Positions 3,250-35,801 are shown, numbered from the stretch's first letter. The stretch is 64,000 nt of DNA from Eremomyces bilateralis CBS 781.70 (GCA_010015585.1 ML975177.1); one strand, 5' to 3'. Notes: generated from the sequence alone by a model not told the origin. Made by a program: numbers and translations.

Positions 3250-4138
3250 TTACTTAGCGACAGCCCGCGTAAGTTCCTCTTGTTTTGCCGCTTTCAGATG
3301 AATTCGCTTTACATGATCCCGCTGTTGGAGGTTAGCGTAGAGCATGAGCTGAGAAGAGGCTTGAGCTTACCATATTGTCTACTCGGCTGAATACACGCTC
3401 GCAGCCTTCCCATTCGCACAGCACGCCCGGGTTATGTTTGGCCTCATGCCTCGCCAGGTCCTTCTTAGAGCTGAAGCCGCCACCGCGCGCTTGCGGACAC
3501 CCTTCGTGCCGGCAGAAGAACGATTTTGTGTGTCTCTTGTGATGTTTTCGGAGATCGCAGCCCCGGGTAAACACTGCCCGCGACGTGCAAGCCGGATATG
3601 CACAGCTCCAGGTGCCTTGCTTATTTAGATATCCGTATTGTCTCAGATCACCGGAACTGGGGGATACCGAGCGAGAGTAATCAGACCGCTGCGGATCTGG
3701 CGACGACTTGGCTGTGTAAACCCCGGCAGACGTAAAGGAGGGGGATCGAGAAGCGCGAGTGTGTAGCTCTGGGCTGAGACCAAGGCCATTATCATGGTAT
3801 TGATGATGTGACCGAGGAAATGAGAATGCTGGATCCGAAGGAGGGAACGCTAGTTGCTGAGAATCCGCAGATGGCGGCGGCGAGGACCAGATCTGCTGGC
3901 CCGTGTAGGATGTTTGCGAGTACGGTGCGTAGGTCGTTTGAGGAAGGTATTGTACAGGTGCATATGGAGGCGAGAATGTCGGTGCAGATTGCGGAAGAGA
4001 AGCTGCTCCTGGTCCGTAGATGGCTGGTATCGCAGTGTTCCCGGTCGAAGACGAGGCTAATGATGCCATGACTTCCTCGTGACTCATCATGGAGAGGTCT
4101 GTTTGGGATGGGTAGTAGCCAGACATGACGAGAGACAT
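3250..4138 (-). CDS. C2H2 zinc-finger transcription factor
   Basis: Three fingers: CAYPAC..LRKHHKRH, CRHEGC..LARHEAKH, CEWEGC..DNM|RDHVKRIH. Intron 3322..3370 (GTAAGC..CTAAC..CAG) completes finger 3. TAA at 3250-3252. Confidence 0.9.
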
Positions 4139-7100
4139 TAAGAACTGAATTCAATGAGATGAGATGAATATGACGATTAATTATCAAATTATAAAAGAAG
4201 GCCCAATTGTTGAGGCTCAGCCCATGCCTTGCAAGTATACAAGGCTTCGTCGAGCGACCAGCCCTGTGGAAGGTGACAGGTAGGAATGAACAACAAGAGG
4301 CCTCAAAGACTTGGGAGTTCTTGTTCGAAAATAAGAAGACTATGAAGCACTCGAGGTAATGCGGGTCATAGAGACTTGATATAGGCTATCTCGCCCGATC
4401 GGTGAGCTTGTGGTCAAGCGTCTTACAATACTTAAGTGGCGGAGTTTAAGCTATTGTCCGTACGTTAACTGCAGATGGCCAGGCCTTGTAAAAGCCCACA
4501 CGTGATCCTCCGTTCCCATCGGTCATTATTTAAGAAAAGCGATGTACGGGAATAGAAGCTGAGGATCGATGCTTGCCCATAATAAGACAGTTCCGGACAC
4601 TGTCCCAGGCGGGCAAGTCTTGGTGTGTGGAGCTTTTCTTAGCCCCAGGGGGCTTAGTAGAAGGATCGACAGGCACGTCAGAGCCTCGAGGAGAGAGCAC
4701 TAGAGTTTCATGTTATTTTCTCTCTTTACGGAATAGACTCTCGAAGAAATCGTGTCCTATGGCCTGTCGGCGGGTAAGCATCCGGCAGCTTGGGGAATTG
4801 TTTGATCTCCGTCCAACCGATATGCAGAATGCCGCTATTGCAGGCTGCAGCAAGATCCGAGCAGTGGGAGGGGCCATGGACAGGCAGGAATCCTGCATGC
4901 CGCTTGGAATAAGTTGGGTGATAGGATTTAGTCTCATGTATGACAAGAGGACGGCTCGCAAATTGAGCCTTTTCCACACCAATGAATGCTTGGATATCAA
5001 CGTAAACATTCCGACCTTAGGACTTGATGGCTGCGATCTGCAAAAGAGCGACATTGTGCCGGATTCTAGTTTGTTTCGGGTTGGTCAGCACCAACTCCGA
5101 AAGATTTAACGCGACGGCTCAACTCGGGTTCGGCTTTTGGAACTATCAATCGGTGGAAATAGAATATTTGAGCAAGGGATCGTGAGCAAGGTCATCCTTC
5201 ATTCCAGTCGGTACATTAATATCGACTCGATCGCAGCATGATTAATGTTATAGTAATAGATGCTGCGAAATATGGGTAGAAGGGATCCGTAGCGCGTATC
5301 TGATTATTCTGGTAGAAGTTTGATGGAATCTCGCCTCTCGGGTTCATGGGGCCGAAATCCAAATCCCACGAAACCAATTAAGCATTTGCTTAGCGGTGAG
5401 ATGCTTATATTCGAAGATCCCGGGGAAGAGTCAAGAGCATTATTATTGGAAACGATGGTTAAGCGGTAAGGTTTATGAGTTTTGATATTGGTATTGACTA
5501 GCTTTGAAGACAAAGATGGTACCTTACATGTAGCAGTTACCAGGACACTGCATGACCCAATAGAGAAAGGGGTGTGGTGTTGGAGAGAAGAGGCGGGAGG
5601 TTCCAAATTCCAATGTCCATCCAGGGGGTGTCCATTCTCTCACCTTCACTTATCTCAAGGTCTCATAAAATTCGGGAGAATTGGTACCTATCCTCAACAT
5701 GCAAGTCAAACATTCAAAGAGCAAGGACGTGGAATACATCATGGTTAGAGAGCATTCTGCAACCTGGTTCTACCAAAGATTCAGATGGTGGGTCATTGAC
5801 CCGGGGTCTAATTATATTGCCGACAATTCACGATACTTCAACCCCTGCTTGATTGGGATTTGAGATGACGTGAATTGTATTTCATGCTTATGATTTAACG
5901 GTAGCTGTCACTGTTCAGCGCTCCGGCTCCTTACCGACTGAAGGGTCGAGTCGATCTCTAGGTTGGTGTTGCACAGTTGTAGAATAGAACGATAGAGAAG
6001 ACGTAGCTCAATGCTATATGGATCGGTTGCGGAAGACAAAGAAGAAATACTTGGTGGTATGAAAATAGCATTTCCCCCACTCGTTCGGGTTGTCTTGTAG
6101 GGAAGCTAGTCATGTCATCGTTTCGGAATGGATTTCGGGGCAAAGCTGATTTCCCGTGGCTTTGCTGGCGGAACAGGAACCCAAAACAAGTCAGTGCTAT
6201 CATTAGCAGGAGAAGTGAGGCTAGTCCAGCCGGTCGGATATATATTCCTATTGTTGGATTAACCTATTCCTGGGATCGAGTGGGTAGTGGTTTGGACTCT
6301 CCACGCAGTTCGCTCAATAAACCCGAACGCAGTTCTGAACTTGGGTCCTATCGCCAATTTGCATGCTAGTCATAAAATAACATTCAGTGGGTTACCTGCC
6401 ATCAAATATAAGGCCTCCTAAAGCCGATTTAAGACCGCTCGTGGTACTCAACACCCAGAACAGTCAATAAGGTGGGCATTCAATTGTATATTCGGAAGCC
6501 GAGTTGCGAGAGCTATGTATCTGTGCTCGTCAATACCTTAGCCATGGTTTAACTCTCTTAGTTAGAACAGTCCGCTACTACTCATTGGCCACCATAAACC
6601 GCCCTGTACTGATTTTCAGACTAGATGGACTGATGTAGTTCCCTGTTCACCTCCCGTCTTCTCAGTCAGCTCACTAAAGGGCTCACAACAGGGCAGTTGC
6701 GCTTTAAACAATTCCAAATATTGCACAGTCTAACTAATCTCTGTTTTATGGAGAATACTTGATTCCCTTCTGCAGAAACGGAACCAGCCAGCCGTTCTAC
6801 ACCCATCGTGATTGCTGAGCACCCTTTTTGCATGTCAAGCAGCTGAATACGAGAAGGGTTGCACCACACCAAGGTTTCTCGACATTAAGCATCGTACAAC
6901 CATTCTCCAAAGGTTGAGTAATACGGAACATTATGCATATTCTTCCTTAATCAGACGGCACTTTTCGGCTGCGTGGCATTTGGCTGGTAGGAGTATTCTT
7001 GGATACACGCCTCAGTCTCCGGTAGCAAGAAAACTGCAGGATGCCGGAAGCATTCGATCAATGAGAAACATGCGGGACGGATTCGATGAGCATAGCCTAT

Positions 7101-23076: not shown

Positions 23077-23354
23077 CACGATTCCCACAATTGAATGACT
23101 GGGTTATACATTCATGGTATCCGTGTCAGAATTCAGATGAGTTGATTTCTGGCAGTCAATAGATTCATTCGTTGAATGATCTAATCGAAGCTTCGTGATA
23201 CGTGTAGATTGTAGAAGCCGGGCGGTGTCACGTGAGGCTCCCGGTACGCGGTCCGTATGAATCGTGTAATATTCGGTTGAATATTCCCAACTGGACCCTG
23301 CGCTGCAATGCTCCACTCTCACATTCTGTCCTCTGATGGTCTGTGCGTTGGTTC

Positions 23355-23392
23355 ACCGAAATTTTCCATATCTCGATTCGAAAATTTCCCCG
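23355..23392 (+). promoter_or_regulatory. RRPE-like motifs upstream of nucleolin gene
   Basis: CCGAAATTTTCC and CGAAAATTTCC resemble the ribosome-biogenesis RRPE element, followed by a pyrimidine-rich start region. Confidence 0.4.
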
Positions 23393-23585
23393 CCTCTCTC
23401 TTTTCCTTCTTCATTCACTCACATCTTTTCCGCTCGATATCTTTCTGAGCCGCCTACTTCGATCCTCTATATCATTCTTGTGGGCAGTCACTTGAGGGTT
23501 ACCGGAGCAATATTCAAAGCTCCTATATCGTGGGATTTCGCACTTTGCCAACAGTTCTCTATAAGGGAACATACATCAGCAACTG

Positions 23586-23910
23586 GTCAGTGAATGAACG
23601 TCAGGACTGCAGAGCCCGAACTGCAGCTTCCTTTGAAGCACACACTTGGAAACTACTTGATTGGGTCTTGACTGTCACACCTATCATTCGGCACTTGTGG
23701 GAACACTCAGCCTTGTATTGGGAGTGACAGATCGCTTTTCGTGGGTTGGCTCGCCGTGGGTTTTGCTATCTCAATCACGGAGATCGGTTACGCCGCACTG
23801 AGGGGACCTCAGGACATCTTGTCCTGAACAATCGCATTTTCTTGGGCTCTGGGGGACAGCACATCGATTGAAACATTGACTCCGAGGGTGGCTAAGCTAA
23901 TACTTATTAG
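23586..23910 (+). ncRNA. long structured 5'UTR intron of NSR1, candidate intronic ncRNA or cis-regulatory RNA
   Basis: Donor GTCAGT at 23586, branch GCTAAT at 23896, acceptor TAG at 23908-23910, 30 nt before the ATG with an in-frame TAA between. At least five stem-loops inside. Confidence 0.5.
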
Positions 23911-23940
23911 GACTAAGAGGGAATTGACATTATCAACATC

Positions 23941-25631
23941 ATGTCTAAGTCAAAGCCAACAACTAAGGTCTCCAAGAAGGATGCCACTGAGGGCGTGAAG
24001 AAGGGAAGAGTTGTCAAAGCCTCTGCGGACTCTGGCAAGAACAAGTCGGCGCTGAAGAAGTCTTCCAAGGGTGACAGTGGAAAGTCTGCCAAGGCTGTCG
24101 AGCAGATCAAGAAGGCTGTTGAGTCGAAGGTCGATTCTTCATCGGACGATGACAGCGACATTTCTGACAGTGTCGCGAGCGAGGATGAGGCGGTAGCGAA
24201 GAAGGCTGCTACCAAGGGCGATTCCAAGTCAAAGGTATGAATATTCTCCGCCGCTTAGATTTCTATTACTAACCCGTGGATAGAAGGCAAAGGCTCCCAC
24301 TGATTCCGAGGAAAGCTCCGACGATAGCTCGGACTCCGACGCTGAGAGCTCGGCGGCATCTGACTCCGATGAGGAGGCCAGCTCTTCTGATGATAGCTCC
24401 GAATCTGAGTCTGAGTCTGAGGCTCCCAAGCCCAAGGGCAAGGCTGCCAAAGTCACGCCTGTCGTCAACGGAAAGTCTGCTCCTAAGGACAAGAAGGCGG
24501 CTCCTGCTGCGGATGAGACTTCGGACTCGAGCGCAAGCAGCGCATCTGAATCCGAAAATGAAGCCGAATCAGGATCCGACGCAAAGAGCGATGCCTCTGA
24601 CTCCGAAGATGGCTCCGATAGCTCCTCTGATTCTGAGTCTGAATCCGAGGAAAAGGAAGTGAAGGCCGCTCCGGTCAACGCCAACAAGCGCAAGGCCATT
24701 GATGAGGAGGCTACTCCTGCGAAGAAAGCCAAGGTAGAGACCGGAGAAGGCTCCAGCCTTTTCATCGGCAATCTCAGCTGGAACGTCGACAAGGAATGGG
24801 TCGCCCGCGAATTCGAGGAGTTTGGAACCATCACTGGATGCCGTATCATCACTGACAAGGAGAGCGGCCGATCCAAGGGGTAAGCAGTACTATGAAATTC
24901 ATCTGAAATGAACGCTCGCTGACCTCTCGTTCCACAGATACGGATACGTTGACTTCAGCACCCCCGAGGAAGCCCGCGCCGCTCAAGAGGCACGCCACGG
25001 ATATTTCCTCGACGGCCGCGACCTCCGCGTCGACTTCGCCACCCCCCGTCCCGAGCGCCCACAAGACTCTCCCGCCGCCTTCAAGGACCGCGCCAATTTC
25101 CGCGCCCAGAAGTTTGGTGACGCGACTTCGGCGCCCACCAAGACCCTTTGGGTTGGCAACCTGCCTTACGGCACCGATGAAGATACGATTAAGGCTGGGT
25201 TCGGCGAGTACGGCGCCATCTCGCGTGTCGGCCTGCCCCGCGATCGCGAGACCAATGAGATCAAGGGTATCGCATACGTGACATACGGAGAAGTCGAGGA
25301 GGCCAAGGCGGCGTTGGAGGCGCTCAACGGCACCGATTTCAATGGACGTGCGCTGCGTCTCGATTTCGACAAGGGCCGTGATGATGCCGAGGGTGGACGA
25401 GGTGGCTTCGGCGGCCGCGGTCGTGGAGGGTTCGGCGATCGTGGTGGCCGTGGTGGGTTCGGTGGTGGCCGTGGCGGGTTCGGTGATCGTGGTGGACGTG
25501 GCGGCGGCCGTGGGTTCGGCGATCGTGGGGGACGTGGCGGCCGTGGCCGTGGACGTGGTGGTCCTCCTAATACCACCAACCGTGGTGGATTCGGTGACTT
25601 CAAGGGCCAGAAGGTGAGCTTTGATGACTAG
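23941..25631 (+). CDS. NSR1: nucleolin-like protein (Nsr1/Gar2)
   Basis: Lys-rich and Ser/Asp/Glu-rich N-terminus, two RRMs (LFIGNLSWN..SKG|YGYVDF; LWVGNLPY..KGIAYVTY), C-terminal RGG/GAR tract ending RGGFGDFKGQKVSFDD. Two coding introns. Confidence 0.95.
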
Positions 25632-31006: not shown

Positions 31007-33716
31007 ATGTCCTCCCGAGCCTCCATATCAACTCGATCCCCCGCATTCTCCCTCGATACCTTCTCCTCAAAGGATTTCATTGTCAAAGACTTCATCGAGT
31101 CCCTGTCCGACACGGTCATCCCTACAGCCACCCGCCGCTCCGCACCCACCGCCAGCGGCTCATCCACCGCCGCATTCGACCCGAAACCACTCATCAGGAC
31201 GTTCGAATCTGCATTAGCTCGTCTCCGCGGCCTCAGCGAAGATCTCGAGAAGCGCGAAAACGAGTTGTCGAATGCGGTGAGGAGAGCTGAAGCGCAACAT
31301 ACGAACGCAGCGGGAAGCTATGGACAGAGGTTGGAGGGGGCCGTGGACAGATATAATCAGCTGGAAAACAATTTGAACGCGAGTGCCTCGAGCGGCTTGA
31401 CCGACTCGCAGGTGACGAACGGCAATGGATACGGATACGGGAATGGGAACAGGAACGGGTCGGAAGGACGAGATGCCGTGAGCATTGGAGAGCGTCTGGA
31501 AGAGCTGGATAAGCAGAGGCAACGAGCGCTGGACGCAAAATTCTTGATCCAGTGCTGGCAGGAGGTCAGCAGCAAGGGTCAATTGTCGAGCTTGGAGGAT
31601 ATGCGACGACTTGGCGGGAGTGAGGGAAAGGTTCGCTGTGCATCAATCGCGAGACAGCTGCTCCGAATCTGCACGCGGCTGGATCAGGAGGGAATTAGCG
31701 GACGCATCACCAAGGGCAATGGGGTCCGAAACGGCTTGGGAGAGGCCGATTCTCCCGCCCGCGAAATCATCGAGAAGTTCCTGGAGATGCTGGAGAAAGA
31801 TCTCCTGAAACAATTCGACAACCATTACCGGAAACAGAATTTCGACGGCATGAGGGAGTGCGCCATTGCGCTTCGTGACTTCAACGAGGGCGCAAGCGTC
31901 ATGGCGGTCTTTGTCAACCAACACGAATTCTTCATCGACAAGAATCAGTTGCTGGCCGACGAAAACGTCGGCGATGGAGAAGGCTGGGATAAGCTTGCTG
32001 ATCCGGATACCGAGCCTCCCGGAGTCGATCCGTCCTTGCAAGCGTTGGTTGACGAGGTCAAGCTGGTTGTGCAAGAAGAGAGCTTTATCATGAAGAAAGC
32101 CTTTCCGTTCTCAGAGGAGGTGCTCACTCGGTTCTTGCAACGAGTGTTCCAGCAGTCCATACAACAGCGACTCGAAGTGGTTCTAGACAAGGCAAGCTCG
32201 ATATCGTCGCTTGCGTTTCTGCGATCGTTGCAGGCCGCGCGAGGTTACATTGGCGCTTTGGTCGACAGTATGAAATCTCATGGCCTCACGGAACATCCAG
32301 AACCCGTCACTCCTCAGATCGCCGCCGTCCTGGACCAACAGCTAGATGAGCTGTTCGTGCCCTACTTTATCGGTTCATCATACATCGAGCGTGAGAAAAA
32401 GAACCTGGATGAGCTCTATGCGTCATTGCTCTTCAAGTACACAACCTACCATGTATGTGGTCCGTTCCCACGGCAAACTATCCACTAACCAGAGCATTAG
32501 TCCCGTCGGAAGAAAACACCAACTGGCTATTTGGCAGCCCTTAGCATGAGGAGCAAAGAGCTGGTGTCATCTGCAAGAGACGCATATATGGAGCGGTTGG
32601 ACTCGACCGAGTTGCCTCCCTCTCAAAAAGCCATGCTTCTCCGGATCGCCGGAATCAAGGACTCCGAAAAGGACAAGAAGAGCGACATCGAAGTTACGGA
32701 AGCGGACGGCGAGCTCAGTCTTGCCGTGGCAAAGCGCATGATCAAATGGCTGGCAGAAGCCGTGGGAAGAGGATTGGAGCTCAGCGGGGCCGTCGAGGTT
32801 CCAAAAGATATGCAGGCGCTTCATGGCTTGGTGCTGCTGCATATCGGCGAAATTTACATCGAAACGGCGCTCGAAGCGTAAGTCCACCGAACGTCTTGAG
32901 AAGCCAAGGAACTGACCTGATCACAGAGCCGCCGAGCAACTCCCTGCCACCGACGCCCTCAAAACCGAACCCTCCTTCAGCCACTTCCCCACCCTTCCAC
33001 CCATCATCTCCACTCTCCACCTCCTCCGCCTCGCCATCACGACCATGCTCCTCCCCCTCGCCGCTCCCAACCTCACCATCCGCCGCGACATCGAAAAGAC
33101 CCTCGAAGGCACCCTCACCGCCCTCGAATCCCGCATGTCCATCATCCTCCACCGCTCCCTCGACGTCTCCCTCCTCTGGTCCTCCAAGCTCCTCGCCGCC
33201 CAGAAGAAAAACGACTTCCGGCCCCGCGACGAGGATCTCACCCGCCAACTCGACGCCCTGCAAACCCCTACCTGCGCCTCCGTCCACGCCTTCCTCACCC
33301 GCGTCGCCACCGCCGCCGCCGCCGCCCTCGACGGCAAGAACCGCACCGTCTTCTTTTCTGAGCTCGCCCTCGGCCTGCGCTCCCTCCTCTTCGAGCACCT
33401 GCGCAAGTTCACCGTAAGCCTCGCCGGCGGGCTGATCGTCAGCAAGGACGTGAACAAGTACGCGGAGCTTGTGCGCGCGTGGCCGATGGACGCGGACGGC
33501 GAGTTCCGGCGCGACGGCGGCATGGAGGTGCTGGTGGAGGTGGCGAACCTGTTCGTGGTGGGGCCGGAGGCGCTGAAGGAGCGGCTGAAGGTCGGGGCGA
33601 GCGGGGCGGGATCAGGGGCGCGGACGCTGGAGGAGGTGGGGGAGATGAAGAAGTATGTGGAGCGGAGGGAGGATGTAGGATCGGTGGCGGTGCAGGCGGT
33701 GTTGCATGGTGTGTAA
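31007..33716 (+). CDS. SEC10: exocyst complex component Sec10
   Basis: FSLDTFSSKDFIVKDFIESLS, FDPKPLIRTFE, FVNQHEFFID, FLQRVFQQSIQQRLE, QKKNDFRPRD, HLRKFTVSLAGGLIVSKD. ORFs 31007, 32531 and 33045 are joined by two introns. Confidence 0.93.
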
Positions 33717-34379: not shown

Positions 34380-35801
34380 TCACACCCCATTCCCCTCCTT
34401 CCTCTCGTTCATCTCCGTCGCCATCTTCTTCCCAATCTCATACGTGCTAATCATGATCGCACACGCCGGCGCCACCTTCAAGCACCGCGCCGCCCACCCC
34501 TTAAACAGCCCCGCCATCCCCTGCTCCCGGAAGATATGCAGCAGAAACCGTGGCATCGACTGCTCTTCGGGCACCAGCGCCCGCCGCGTGCCCGCCGCCC
34601 CCTCCCCGCCCACCGCGTGCTGGAACACCTGCTGCCGCGTCTTCCCCACGTCGAACGGCTGGGTGACAATCGACGCGACCCCGCCGGACGCCGCGCCCGC
34701 GAGGAAGCTGTCGATCAGCGTGTTCGTGTGGTTCTCCTTGTTCATATTATGTCGCCGCCGTGCGAACGCCTCGGGGCTGGTCGCTTTCGTGGGGGGGGGT
34801 ACCCCCGACCGGCGTGTCCGCATGTCAGTCAGGATGTTGCGGCCGGCTTCGTAGCCCCACCAGTAAAGCGCGGAGAAGGGCGCGTCCCGCCAGAGGGTGA
34901 GGGTGAGGCCGCGCCAGAGGCTGAAGGGGCCTTGGACGGCGACCATTTCTTTCAGGCCTTGGAAGGTCTCCTTGACCACGCCTGTCGCGGAGTTCGATGA
35001 ATGAGAAGCCTGCATTCGTGTCCGAAACATCTCGATCGGACTGACGGCCATCGCTGCTAGAACGCGAGCCGAGCTGCCGGCGACTAAGGGTGCGTATTGG
35101 TCGCTCACTCCCACCCGCCGGACCGGGGACTTTCGATTGTACCGCAACCAGTCGTAGCCTGAAAAATAGATGACATTGGCCGGGACGGCCATGATGAGGG
35201 TGGGGGTTAACCCTCGCCATAAGGTTCTCGGCCCCTCGTTCCGGGCGATCTTGCGCAGGCCGTCCAATGTGGAGGTGATGGTCTTTCGCTGGATTTCTTC
35301 GGCGGCACAGTTCGCGGGCAATCGAGGGATGGCGGCGGGGGTGTTTAGAAGTGCCATGTTCGATCCCGCGACGCAGTATGGGGCGTTGTTGTTGACCCAG
35401 AAGACCTCTCGACAGCAGGCGGATATGCCGATGTTTGAGGGGAGGTTATGGAAGGCATTGGAGGATGCGAAGGTTCGGGGAGGGCGGGTAGGTCGTGAGG
35501 GGGTCGGTTGTGATTGTAGGCGGACGCGAACGACGTCTAAAGGAGTGACTGTGATCTGTTAGTCCAATTGATATCCGTTGGTCTGATATGACAATGCCAT
35601 ATGACGTGGTGGGTTACCGAGGAGGGATGTGAGGATGCTTCCAGAGAGGGCGGAGACCATCTTCTGCGATAGGGTAGTTTGGACCTCATCCTCAGAATCG
35701 TCTGCACCCGCGGAGCCATTGTCGAGAGGGTCGCTAGCAGGGAAATCTATTCTATCATGGCTTTGGCTGCCGGTTGTGTTTGCCTCTCGAGTGGAATCCA
35801 T
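34380..35801 (-). CDS. MTM1: mitochondrial carrier, SLC25A39/40 (Mtm1) family
   Basis: QKMVSALSGSILTSLL|VTPLDVVRVRLQ, CCREVFW, KIARNEG..TLWRGLTPTL.MAVPANVIYF.GY, LTLWRDAPFSALYWWGYE, KVAPACAIMISTYE. Confidence 0.9.

What the first reader, a model, noticed from the sequence alone, without database searches (positions are those of the whole stretch)
23586..23910. Highly structured RNA inside a long 5'UTR intron of the nucleolin gene
Seen: a ~325-nt intron (most here are about 50-60 nt) packed with consecutive stems. They are CTGCAG/CTGCAG (23607-23626), GCTTC/GAAGC (23626-23639), CTGTCAC/GTGACAG (23672-23730), CCGTG/CACGG (23754-23780) and the perfect TCAGGACA/TGTCCTGA (23809-23827), followed directly by ACA (23828-23830). 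An ANANNA box (AAACTA 23650-23655) follows the first domain. A second TCAGGAC at 23601-23607 could compete for GTCCTGA, allowing an alternative long-range fold. Established: ribosome-biogenesis genes often host intronic snoRNAs (vertebrate nucleolin hosts U20/U23/U82). Inference: an atypical ~230-nt H/ACA-like RNA or a splicing-control switch. I could not match it to a known family.
Basis: partly seen in the sequence, partly recalled or inferred. Interest (0 to 1): 0.7.

Follow-up and report, generated by a model that had tools for sequence, protein, structure and literature searches.

The report
Conserved hairpin in nucleolin leader intron
The long intron in the untranslated leader of this fungus's nucleolin gene is not a snoRNA host; it carries a hairpin and short G-rich words that related fungi keep on the same gene's RNA, which probably lets the cell control how much of this ribosome-assembly protein it makes.

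Summary
Window 23586-23910 is a real 325-nt GT..AG intron in the 5' leader of a nucleolin/NSR1-type gene.

The snoRNA reading is not supported:
- Rfam gives no match, even at E<=10.
- There is no C box in 9 of 9 related leaders.
- The whole intron folds no better than shuffles (z -1.15).

One stem is special. The hairpin at 23670-23733 (z -3.72) recurs at the same place upstream of the nucleolin start codon in 8 of the 62 metagenome loci fetched. All 8 look Dothideomycete. The apex is invariant (UGUG-GGAA-CAC) and the stem below it covaries.

Around the hairpin lie G[T/A]GGG words, on the sense strand only: 8 against 0 in the window, and GTGGGC 37 against 0 over nine leaders. In other fungal loci the same word array sits in the 3'UTR instead, so it acts in RNA.

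Intron-containing RNA has about the same contig depth as the spliced joint, while the two coding introns have none.

Best reading: an undescribed RNA control module, probably a protein-binding platform that gives feedback through splicing or retention of the leader intron. No binding protein or effect on expression was shown.

The parts
23450..23585 (+). 5' leader exon 1 (lower bound of its start)
   Evidence: RNA-derived contig covers 23450-23586, and depth is 0 over 23101-23403. It carries G-words at 23480, 23494 and 23530.
23586..23910 (+). 325-nt leader intron: 5' site GTCAGT at 23586-23591, branch-like GCTAAT at 23896-23901, 3' AG at 23909-23910
   Evidence: A joint skips 325 nt with GT..AG ends. 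A second contig runs unspliced over 23557-23939.
23670..23733 (+). Conserved hairpin. Outer stem 23670-23678 pairs with 23724-23733. GGC 23690-23692 pairs with GCC 23710-23712. GUG 23697-23699 pairs with CAC 23704-23706. The loop is GGAA at 23700-23703.
   Evidence: The minimum-energy fold and the centroid are identical, z -3.72. The covariance model matches 23684-23718 at 47.5 bits. The exact 11-mer at 23696-23706 occurs once in the window and once in each of 8 loci. Pairs covary.
23480..23889 (+). Span of eight sense-strand G[T/A]GGG words, starting at 23480, 23494, 23530, 23697, 23741, 23756, 23800 and 23884
   Evidence: 8 sense against 0 antisense over 23450-23910. Expected 1.17, Poisson P 3e-5. 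These are degenerate forms of the GTGGGCTT/GAGGGCTT words of the related loci.
23594..23671 (+). uORF of 25 codons, present only if the intron is retained
   Evidence: It holds the only ATG upstream of the start codon in 23450-23940. The spliced leader has none.
23809..23827 (+). Perfect 8-bp hairpin followed by ACA, specific to this species
   Evidence: z -2.20. GTCCTGA is absent from the 8 related leaders.
23607..23626 (+). 6-bp hairpin with GCCCGA in its loop, not conserved
   Evidence: The word [TG]CCCG[AG] occurs in 2 of 9 leaders, below the 5.1 expected.
23792..23798 (+). GCCGCAC word that accompanies the G-word arrays in other loci
   Evidence: Overall it is not enriched (44 sense against 34 antisense), so this rests on position only.
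23941..25631 (+). Nucleolin/NSR1-type coding region, with exons 23941-24234, 24284-24879 and 24938-25631
   Evidence: Joints, translations, RRM_1 matches at 5.4e-26 and 7.8e-08, and relatives named nucleolin or nuclear localization sequence binding protein.

Best explanation
The intron is part of an RNA-level control module of the nucleolin transcript. The module has two parts.

1. A hairpin (window 23670-23733). Its apex sequence is fixed across Dothideomycetes and its lower stem changes by compensating substitutions.
2. An array of short G-rich words, G[U/A]GGG(C)(U/A)U, written only on the RNA-sense strand through leader exon 1 and the intron.

Most likely the words and the hairpin are binding sites for a protein. 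The prime candidate is nucleolin itself, because proteins of this type bind guanine-run nucleic acid. Binding would slow or block removal of the leader intron. The unspliced RNA carries a uORF and a 490-nt structured leader, so it would yield little protein. That would give negative feedback on nucleolin output.

**Shown:** the splicing, the presence of intron-containing RNA, the conservation, the covariation, the strand bias, and the move of the array between leader and 3'UTR in other lineages.

**Inferred:** that a protein binds, which protein it is, and the direction of the effect.
For: **(1) Conservation at one gene and one place.**
- blastn of window 23400-23941 against 62 metagenome loci found a single shared block, 23688-23715, in 7 loci. 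All hits are on the + strand and lie 950-1180 nt upstream of the exon-3 protein match.
- The exact 11-mer TGTGGGAACAC occurs once in the 64-kb window and once in each of 8 loci. It never occurs on the other strand or anywhere else in 327,101 nt of loci.
- nhmmer gives the nine at E<=1.4e-8 and the next hit at 0.34. The covariance model R1 gives the nine at 27.8-55.1 bits and the next hit at 14.7 bits, E 0.27.
- In all nine the core lies 238-503 nt before the nucleolin ATG. A branch-like word lies 27-52 nt before that ATG.

**(2) Structure.**
- RNAalifold predicts GGC/GCC plus UGUG-GGAA-CACA.
- On the model-fitted alignment, 94.7% of 95 cells pair, against 85.5 +/- 2.0 in shuffles (0 of 500 reach it). 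Slid controls give 19-67%.
- Three pairs of the lower stem change on both sides (7 cells). Examples are CUUC/GAAG, CCUC/GAGG, CGUC/GACG and UGUC/GACA. The covariation score is 0.197 against 0.071 (0 of 500).
- The same three-helix shape is the minimum-energy fold in 7 of 9.
- The sense strand is the more stable in 7 of 9.
- One-base insertions inside the conserved block in L009 and L024 rule out a coding constraint.

**(3) G-words.**
- Over nine 700-nt leaders, sense against antisense: GTGGGC 37:0 (expected 2.2), GGGCTT 36:0, GAGGGC 18:1.
- In the window, G[TA]GGG is 8:0 against 1.17 expected.
- The hairpin apex contains the same word.

**(4) The array acts in RNA, not in promoter DNA.**
- Loci whose protein is closest to Leotiomycete (Coleophoma) proteins have no upstream array. 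They have one right after the stop codon: L022 6:1, L025 6:0, L030 6:0. L029 has 9:0.
- In the window, all the words lie inside the stretch covered by RNA contigs.

**(5) RNA (contigs only, so a hint).**
- Unspliced contig 23557-23939 has depth 2398 and the spliced joint 2246. The two coding introns add no depth: bin 24212-24312 reads 1478.8, which is what the exon contig alone gives.
- The promoter side, 23101-23403, has depth 0, so the intron signal is not DNA carry-over.

**(6) Retention adds the leader's only uATG**.

**(7) Background.** Yeast Nsr1 binds a guanine-run oligonucleotide, and this depends on the G runs and on its RGG tail (PMC7768239, abstract and passages). RGG proteins often bind G-rich parts of their own mRNAs (PMC11789052, abstract and passages).
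Against: - No binding, no regulation and no change in splicing were measured. The trans factor is a guess.
- Contig depths are one mean per contig. They cannot separate true retention from a stable excised intron or an internal fragment (warning). There is only one run, and its kind is recorded as 'RNA?'.
- The hairpin is thermodynamically unremarkable in 7 of 9 loci (z -0.06 to -0.94).
- In L006 and L004 the minimum-energy fold does not form the full shape.
- Covariation rests on nine sequences, some closely related (L002/L003). The alignment was fitted to the model, which favours the structure.
- In the window the G-words are degenerate. The strict 8-mer G[TA]GGGC[TA]T is absent from the intron. 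A GGG-over-CCC tract skew this large occurs in 19 of 1271 overlapping windows.
- The 5' splice sites of the other eight loci were not established, so 'inside the intron' is shown only for the window.
- In L040 the array lies upstream of an AAATTTT-type promoter-like word, which would fit a DNA element there.
- The words are often spaced about 10-11 nt apart, which could also fit DNA binding.
Confidence: 0.55

Rival explanations
1. The intron hosts a stable small RNA: an atypical H/ACA-like snoRNA, or another intron-derived RNA. The conserved hairpin would be part of it.
For: - Intron k-mers are about as abundant as the spliced joint, while the coding introns are absent. An excised stable RNA would produce this pattern.
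- ANANNA and ACA words exist.
- The 234-nt span folds slightly better than shuffles (z -1.82, 7 of 200).
- Ribosome-synthesis genes often host snoRNAs (recalled).
Against: - Rfam gives 0 matches at gathering score and 0 at E<=10.
- TGATGA occurs in 0 of 9 leaders.
- The conserved hairpin has internal loops of only 1-4 nt and no guide pocket. The 8-bp hairpin before the ACA has none either.
- That hairpin's arm GTCCTGA is in 0 of 8 relatives.
- No H/ACA box is among the shared words.
- In other lineages the same word array sits in a 3'UTR, where no intron-processing route exists.
Confidence: 0.07
2. The hairpin is a splicing aid with no regulatory role. In a long intron it would bring the 5' site and the branch point closer together, and the G triplets would act as general intronic splicing enhancers.
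For: - The intron is about six times the local norm.
- The hairpin sits between the 5' site and the branch.
- Structure that shortens long yeast introns, and G-triplet enhancers in animals, are both known (recalled).
Against: - A mere spacer would not need about 20 invariant apex bases across a fungal class.
- It would not need words of fixed spelling (GTGGGCTT).
- The array also works from 3'UTRs in other lineages, where there is nothing to splice.
- Splicing here looks incomplete rather than helped.
Confidence: 0.12
3. The G-words are DNA sites for a transcription factor (an intronic or downstream enhancer). The hairpin would be a by-product of site arrangement.
For: - Word spacing is often 10-11 nt.
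- In L040 the array lies upstream of a promoter-like word.
- The word loosely resembles telobox-type sites (recalled).
Against: - Strand bias is total: GTGGGC 37:0.
- TAGGG and TTAGGG occur in 0 of 9 leaders.
- The array moves to the 3'UTR in 4 loci.
- In the window all words lie in transcribed sequence.
- Compensating changes in the hairpin stem make sense only for RNA or single strands.
Confidence: 0.08
4. It is an introner-like element, a recently inserted self-copying hairpin intron of the kind known in Dothideomycetes.
For: It is a long, stem-rich intron in a Dothideomycete. The idea came from earlier notes of this scan.
Against: - There is no second copy in the 64-kb window; the best other match is 16 nt.
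- The hairpin, and a branch/AG just before the ATG, are shared by nine distant members of the class at the same gene. The intron is therefore old.
- The whole genome is not held, so copy number beyond the window is untested.
Confidence: 0.02

Closest known systems
Self-regulating RNA-binding proteins that hold back an intron of their own pre-mRNA. Examples: FUS and Chtop (PMC8419956 and PMC5175361, search listing and abstract starts only), and yeast RPL30 and other ribosomal-protein genes (recalled).
   Same: A conserved element lies in the protein's own transcript. A spliced form and an intron-containing form exist side by side. The retained form has an upstream ORF. The gene belongs to ribosome synthesis.
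   Different: Binding by the gene's own product is not shown here. The element is a hairpin plus a multi-copy word array rather than a single mimic of the protein's rRNA site. In other fungal lineages the array has moved to the 3'UTR.
RGG-domain proteins that bind guanine-rich parts of their own mRNAs (PMC11789052, abstract and passages), and yeast Nsr1 binding to guanine-run DNA (PMC7768239, abstract and passages).
   Same: The protein has an RGG tail, and its transcript carries many guanine-run words on the sense strand.
   Different: - The words are in the non-coding leader and intron, not in the RGG-coding part.
- A canonical four-tract quadruplex is absent from the window. It is present in only 1 of 9 leaders with loops <=7, and in 3 of 9 with loops <=12.
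- The words have fixed flanks, which a quadruplex would not need.
Vertebrate nucleolin recognition element, a hairpin whose loop carries (U/G)CCCG(A/G). The consensus is recalled, not taken from a call.
   Same: A short hairpin that could be read by tandem RRMs of a nucleolin.
   Different: The conserved loop here is GGAA on UGUG/CACA. The vertebrate word occurs in 2 of 9 leaders against 5.1 expected. In the window it sits in another, non-conserved hairpin (23607-23626).
snoRNAs hosted in introns of vertebrate nucleolin genes
   Same: The host gene family is the same, and the intron is structured.
   Different: No snoRNA boxes, no guide pocket and no Rfam match.
Structured RNA motifs found by fungal comparative screens. 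Sources: Li and Breaker 2017 (PMC5640933) and Gao, Jones and Rivas 2021 (PMC8216456). For both I ran term searches of the main text and read passages; supplements were not seen.
   Same: Hairpins with a GNRA loop in leaders or introns of ribosome-related genes of Pezizomycotina.
   Different: Neither main text contains 'nucleolin', 'NSR1' or 'gar2'. Their listed motifs belong to other genes.

Membership tests
H/ACA snoRNA | Match to a curated family model | tested here: not met
   Rfam 15 gives 0 matches at gathering score over the window, and 0 at E<=10 over 23400-24000.
H/ACA snoRNA | Hairpins with a large internal guide pocket about 14-16 nt before the H or ACA box | tested here: not met
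   The conserved hairpin has internal loops of 1-4 nt. The hairpin before the ACA is a plain 8-bp stem with a 3-nt loop.
H/ACA snoRNA | H box in the hinge and ACA three bases from the 3' end | tested here: inconclusive
   AAACTA (23650) and ACA (23828) are present, but such words are common. Contigs cannot show RNA ends.
H/ACA snoRNA | Boxes and hairpins kept in orthologous introns | tested here: not met
   The only words shared by at least 6 of 9 leaders are the hairpin core, the G-words and GTTCGTTG(C). GTCCTGA occurs in 0 of 8 relatives.
C/D snoRNA | C box RUGAUGA paired with a D box CUGA | tested here: not met
   TGATGA is absent from 9 of 9 leaders.
Autoregulatory element in an RNA-binding protein's own pre-mRNA | Conserved cis element in the gene's own transcript | tested here: met
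   The hairpin is present in 9 of 9 Dothideomycete-type leaders that have enough upstream sequence. The sense-only word array is kept in the leader or the 3'UTR in further lineages.
Autoregulatory element in an RNA-binding protein's own pre-mRNA | An unproductive isoform exists beside the productive one | tested here: met
   Spliced joint depth is 2246 and the unspliced contig 2398, while the coding introns have none. Retention adds a 25-codon uORF. This rests on one run, on contigs only.
Autoregulatory element in an RNA-binding protein's own pre-mRNA | The gene's product binds the element, and the isoform ratio follows the protein level | not testable with these tools
   This needs binding assays, CLIP and dosage experiments.
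Canonical RNA G-quadruplex | Four runs of three or more G separated by loops of 1-7 nt | tested here: not met
   None in the window leader. Present in 1 of 9 leaders (L024), and in 3 of 9 with loops up to 12.
Vertebrate-type nucleolin recognition element | (U/G)CCCG(A/G) in a hairpin loop (consensus recalled) | tested here: not met
   The conserved hairpin's loop is GGAA. The word occurs in 2 of 9 leaders against 5.1 expected.
Introner-like element | Many near-identical copies in unrelated genes of one genome | tested here: inconclusive
   There is no other copy in 64 kb, but the whole genome is not held. The shared position across the class argues against a recent gain.

The most novel reading that the evidence does not exclude
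The hairpin apex and the GUGGG(C)UU words would be the natural recognition element of fungal nucleolin (Nsr1/Gar2 type). The protein would measure its own free pool by coating the leader of its pre-mRNA, or the 3'UTR in other classes, and so shut down its own production. That would give a first sequence-and-shape specificity for the two RRMs plus RGG tail of fungal nucleolin. It would also be a self-contained feedback loop on a central ribosome-assembly factor, conserved across Pezizomycotina but rewired between intron and 3'UTR.
Probability: 0.3. Interest if true: 0.75.

Novelty: new variant of a known kind. Interest (0 to 1): 0.6.

Why it matters
Nucleolin-type proteins are needed for early pre-rRNA processing, and little is known about how fungi set their level. 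A hairpin with a fixed apex and a covarying stem, together with a strand-specific word array that follows the transcript from leader intron to 3'UTR across fungal classes, points to post-transcriptional control that is missing from current annotation.

- It is not in Rfam.
- The main texts of the two large fungal RNA-structure screens I could search do not mention the gene.
- My four other text searches listed no paper that describes such an element.

The finding gives a concrete, short RNA to test for binding and for control of splicing. It is also a warning that long leader introns of this gene should not be read as snoRNA hosts by default.

Two earlier notes of this scan saw the word array in other genomes. 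The conserved hairpin, its covariation, its restriction to Dothideomycete-type loci and the RNA evidence for the unspliced form are added here.

Tried and rejected
- **snoRNA.** Rfam at two thresholds, C box search and shared-word search found nothing that fits a snoRNA.
- **Whole-intron structure.** It folds no better than shuffles on either strand.
- **G-quadruplex.** Canonical motifs are absent from the window and rare in the relatives.
- **Telobox (TAGGG/TTAGGG).** Found in 0 of 9 leaders.
- **Vertebrate nucleolin loop word.** Not conserved.
- **Conserved uORF peptide.** The window's uORF ends at 23671, before the conserved apex (23689 onward). One-base insertions in L009 and L024 break any reading frame.
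- **Introner-like element.** No second copy in the window.
- **A second dense G[TA]GGG cluster in the window** (minus strand, about 33,000-33,400). It is the antisense of a coding region and is unrelated.
- **GGTTCGT as a conserved weak 5' splice site.** I first read it that way. I dropped the idea because the same word accompanies the arrays in 3'UTRs.
- **Whole genome.** Not held. The records behind my loci could not be searched.
- **The look-up of sequencing runs.** No holder on record as RNA was listed. The one run listed is marked 'RNA?'. It behaved as RNA when laid, because its contigs skip the coding introns.
- **Mimicry of an rRNA or pre-rRNA site.** This could not be tested, because no rDNA of these fungi was at hand.
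- **Literature word searches for the motif letters.** They returned only primer lists.
- **Earlier-findings look-ups.** By place and by sequence they returned nothing.
- A pattern search for ATG over the whole window was useless. It was replaced by a script.

Full report
**What is there**

The window around the finding holds a nucleolin/NSR1-type gene on the + strand.
- The start codon is at 23941. The exons are 23941-24234, 24284-24879 and 24938-25631.
- The product has an acidic, serine-rich N-terminal part, two RRM domains (Pfam RRM_1, 5.4e-26 and 7.8e-08) and an RGG tail.
- Its relatives are named nucleolin or nuclear localization sequence binding protein.
- A neighbouring ORF (34380-35357, minus strand) is 100% identical to a protein named from Eremomyces bilateralis CBS 781.70. 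This is a Dothideomycete of uncertain placement, and the next best hit is 68% identical.

**The observation**

The intron is real. In the one public run that holds this stretch (coded X1, kept as contigs), one contig skips 325 nt between 23585 and 23911 with GT..AG ends. Another contig skips both coding introns (49 and 58 nt), which shows that the run behaves as RNA.

'Packed with stems' is not more than chance for the intron as a whole:
- whole intron, z -1.15 on the sense strand and -1.00 on the other;
- the proposed 234-nt RNA, z -1.82;
- 23669-23734, z -3.72, with 0 of 200 shuffles as good;
- the 8-bp hairpin region 23792-23834, z -2.20, 2 of 200;
- the other three segments tested, z between -1.31 and +0.67.

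**Not a snoRNA**

- Rfam 15 gives no match in the window at gathering score, and none in 23400-24000 even at E<=10.
- No close relative of the species was available, so I fetched distant ones. A profile of nucleolin proteins pulled 62 loci from metagenome contigs, at most 49% identical to exon 3.
- Among nine comparable leaders there is no TGATGA.
- The only words shared by most of them are the hairpin core, the G-rich words and a GTTCGTTG word.
- The 8-bp hairpin before the ACA has no pocket. Its 3' arm is found in none of the eight relatives.

**The conserved hairpin**

blastn of the window's leader and intron against the 62 loci gave one shared block, 23688-23715, in seven loci. The hits were always on the gene's strand, about 1 kb upstream of the exon-3 match.

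The exact 11-mer TGTGGGAACAC occurs once in the window (23696) and once in each of L002, L003, L004, L005, L006, L009, L024 and L035. It occurs nowhere else in 327,101 nt of loci and never on the other strand.

A profile HMM and a covariance model (35 positions, 11 pairs) recover exactly these nine:
- nhmmer gives E<=1.4e-8 for the nine, and 0.34 for the next hit;
- the covariance model gives 27.8-55.1 bits for the nine, and 14.7 bits for the next hit.

None of the other 54 loci has the hairpin. That includes 14 for which 1,200 nt of upstream sequence was examined.

By their best named protein matches the eight loci are all Dothideomycete-like:
- L002: Parastagonospora, 92%
- L003: Pyrenophora, 91%
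- L035: Friedmanniomyces, 98.7%
- L006: Saxophila, 62%
- L009 and L024: Oleoguttula, Cryomyces and Lepidopterella, 62-68%
- L004 and L005: the best matches are unnamed proteins; the best named one for L005 is Aureobasidium, 59%

Loci closest to Leotiomycete (Coleophoma), Chaetothyriales (Rhinocladiella) or Geoglossum-type proteins lack the hairpin.

In all nine the core lies 238-503 nt before the nucleolin ATG. A branch-like word followed by AG lies 27-52 nt before that ATG. So a leader intron that ends just before the start codon is probably shared. Only the window's splice sites are shown by RNA.

The shape has four parts:
- a GGAA loop on UGUG/CACA (GUG/CAC in the window);
- an invariant GGC/GCC helix;
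- a 3-5 bp helix that changes by compensating substitutions (CUUC/GAAG, CCUC/GAGG, CGUC/GACG, UGUC/GACA, CUGG/CCAG);
- outer stems that differ from locus to locus.

On the model-fitted alignment:
- 94.7% of cells pair, against 85.5 +/- 2.0 for shuffled partners (0 of 500) and 19-67% for slid partners;
- three pairs change on both sides (7 cells);
- the covariation score is 0.197 against 0.071.

The caveats are nine sequences, some of them related, and an alignment fitted to the structure.

The fold is the minimum-energy structure in 7 of 9. It is thermodynamically outstanding only in the window and in L005. The sense strand is the more stable in 7 of 9. One-base insertions inside the block (L009, L024) exclude a coding constraint.

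**The G-rich words**

Around the hairpin, the eight related leaders carry many copies of GTGGGCTT, GAGGGCTT or GTGGGCAT.
- Over nine 700-nt stretches, sense against antisense: GTGGGC 37:0 (2.2 expected), GGGCTT 36:0, GAGGGC 18:1.
- The window has a looser form. Eight G[TA]GGG words lie on the sense strand of 23450-23910 and none on the other strand, against 1.17 expected (P 3e-5).
- The strict 8-mer is absent from the window's intron.
- The hairpin apex itself contains the word.

The array is wider than the hairpin. It is upstream of the gene in L010 (8:0), L040 (7:0) and L014 (3:0). In L022, L025, L030 and L029 it is missing upstream but stands directly behind the stop codon (6:1, 6:0, 6:0 and 9:0).

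An element that keeps its strand while moving between leader and 3'UTR acts in the RNA. Two earlier notes of this scan had said the same for other genomes. I tested their claim on my own loci and it held.

**RNA state**

In run X1:
- the unspliced contig 23557-23939 has mean word depth 2398;
- the spliced joint has 2246;
- exon 1 has 5625 and the coding contig 2872;
- 23101-23403 has depth 0.

The leader intron, unlike the coding introns, therefore persists in RNA at a level of the same order as the spliced form. Contig depths are means. They cannot tell retention from a stable excised piece, and this is one run only.

If retained, the intron brings in the leader's only upstream ATG (23594, a 25-codon uORF). 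The spliced leader has none.

**How it most likely works**

I read the hairpin and the words as a protein-binding platform on the nascent nucleolin transcript. It would hold back removal of the leader intron, or act on the mRNA from the 3'UTR in other classes, and so tune output.

The obvious candidate binder is nucleolin itself.
- Yeast Nsr1 binds a guanine-run oligonucleotide in a way that needs the G runs and the RGG tail (PMC7768239, abstract and passages).
- RGG proteins commonly bind G-rich parts of their own mRNAs (PMC11789052, abstract and passages).
- Intron-retention feedback is known for other RNA-binding proteins (PMC8419956 and PMC5175361, listing only).

All of this is inference. 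No binding or regulation was measured.

A canonical quadruplex is not the conserved feature: 0 in the window and 1 of 9 overall. The vertebrate nucleolin loop word is not conserved either, in 2 of 9 leaders against 5.1 expected. One copy does sit in the loop of the window's first hairpin.

**Rivals**

- **A stable intron-derived RNA.** This remains possible from the depth data, but it lacks every snoRNA hallmark.
- **A passive splicing aid.** This does not explain an invariant apex or the 3'UTR arrays.
- **A DNA enhancer.** This is contradicted by the total strand bias, the 3'UTR placement and the stem covariation. The 10-11 nt spacing and the L040 layout keep it alive at a low level.
- **An introner-like element.** This is unlikely. 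There is no other copy in 64 kb and the position is shared across the class. The whole genome could not be searched.

**Novelty**

Rfam has no such family. The main texts of the two fungal structure screens contain no mention of nucleolin, NSR1 or gar2; their supplements were not seen. My four other text searches listed no paper that describes such an element.

I rate it a new variant of a known kind, namely a cis-regulatory RNA in the transcript of an RNA-binding ribosome-synthesis factor. Interest is moderate to high. The finding rests on comparative evidence and one RNA data set.

Noticed in passing
window 23229-23234 and 23357-23389: Upstream of the RNA-supported start lie a CACGTG word and two AAATTTT-type words (cgaaattttcc, gaaaatttcc). 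They look like the promoter words of ribosome-synthesis genes. The label is recalled and was not tested.
   Followed up: no
window 23485-23491: CAGTCAC sits between the first two G-words of the leader. From memory it resembles the fission-yeast HomolD box. It lies inside the RNA-covered exon.
   Followed up: no
window 23450-23586 against 23910-25478: The leader exon contig has about twice the depth of the coding contig (5625 against 2872). This could mean short or prematurely ended transcripts, or simply uneven cover.
   Followed up: no
window 23792-23798; L010, L014, L015, L024 upstream; L022, L025, L030, L029, L011 downstream of the gene: A GCCGCAC(A) word accompanies the G-word arrays in both the leader and the 3'UTR versions. 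Overall it is not enriched (44 sense against 34 antisense).
   Followed up: partly
L004, L006, L009, L024, L035 (about 110-135 nt before the hairpin core); L025, L030 (3'UTR): A GGTTCGTTG(GC) word recurs next to the arrays, 17 sense against 3 antisense over all loci and the window. Its first six letters recall a tRNA-type B box (recalled). It is probably not a splice site, because it also occurs in 3'UTRs.
   Followed up: partly
L010 about 4700-4735; L002 about 3497-3512; L003 about 627-642; L022, L025, L030, L029 3'UTRs: Other small hairpins sit inside the arrays. L010 has AUCUC-GAAA-GAGAU. L002 and L003 have a GAGA-capped stem. The 3'UTR versions have a 5-bp stem that covaries (CUCCU/AGGAG, CUCCC/GGGAG, ACUCC/GGAGU) just before a G-word. 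These were seen by eye.
   Followed up: no
window 23796-23818 and L005 about 5098-5150: Downstream of the hairpin, the window and L005 share CACTGAGGGG and CTCAGGACATC in the same order. This may be a second conserved block in part of the class.
   Followed up: no
window 23607-23626: The loop of the first hairpin reads GCCCGA, the vertebrate nucleolin recognition word (recalled). It is not conserved in the relatives.
   Followed up: yes
window about 33000-33400, minus strand: This is the densest G[TA]GGG cluster of the window (12 in 461 nt). It is the antisense of a coding region on the + strand and is unrelated to the nucleolin module.
   Followed up: yes
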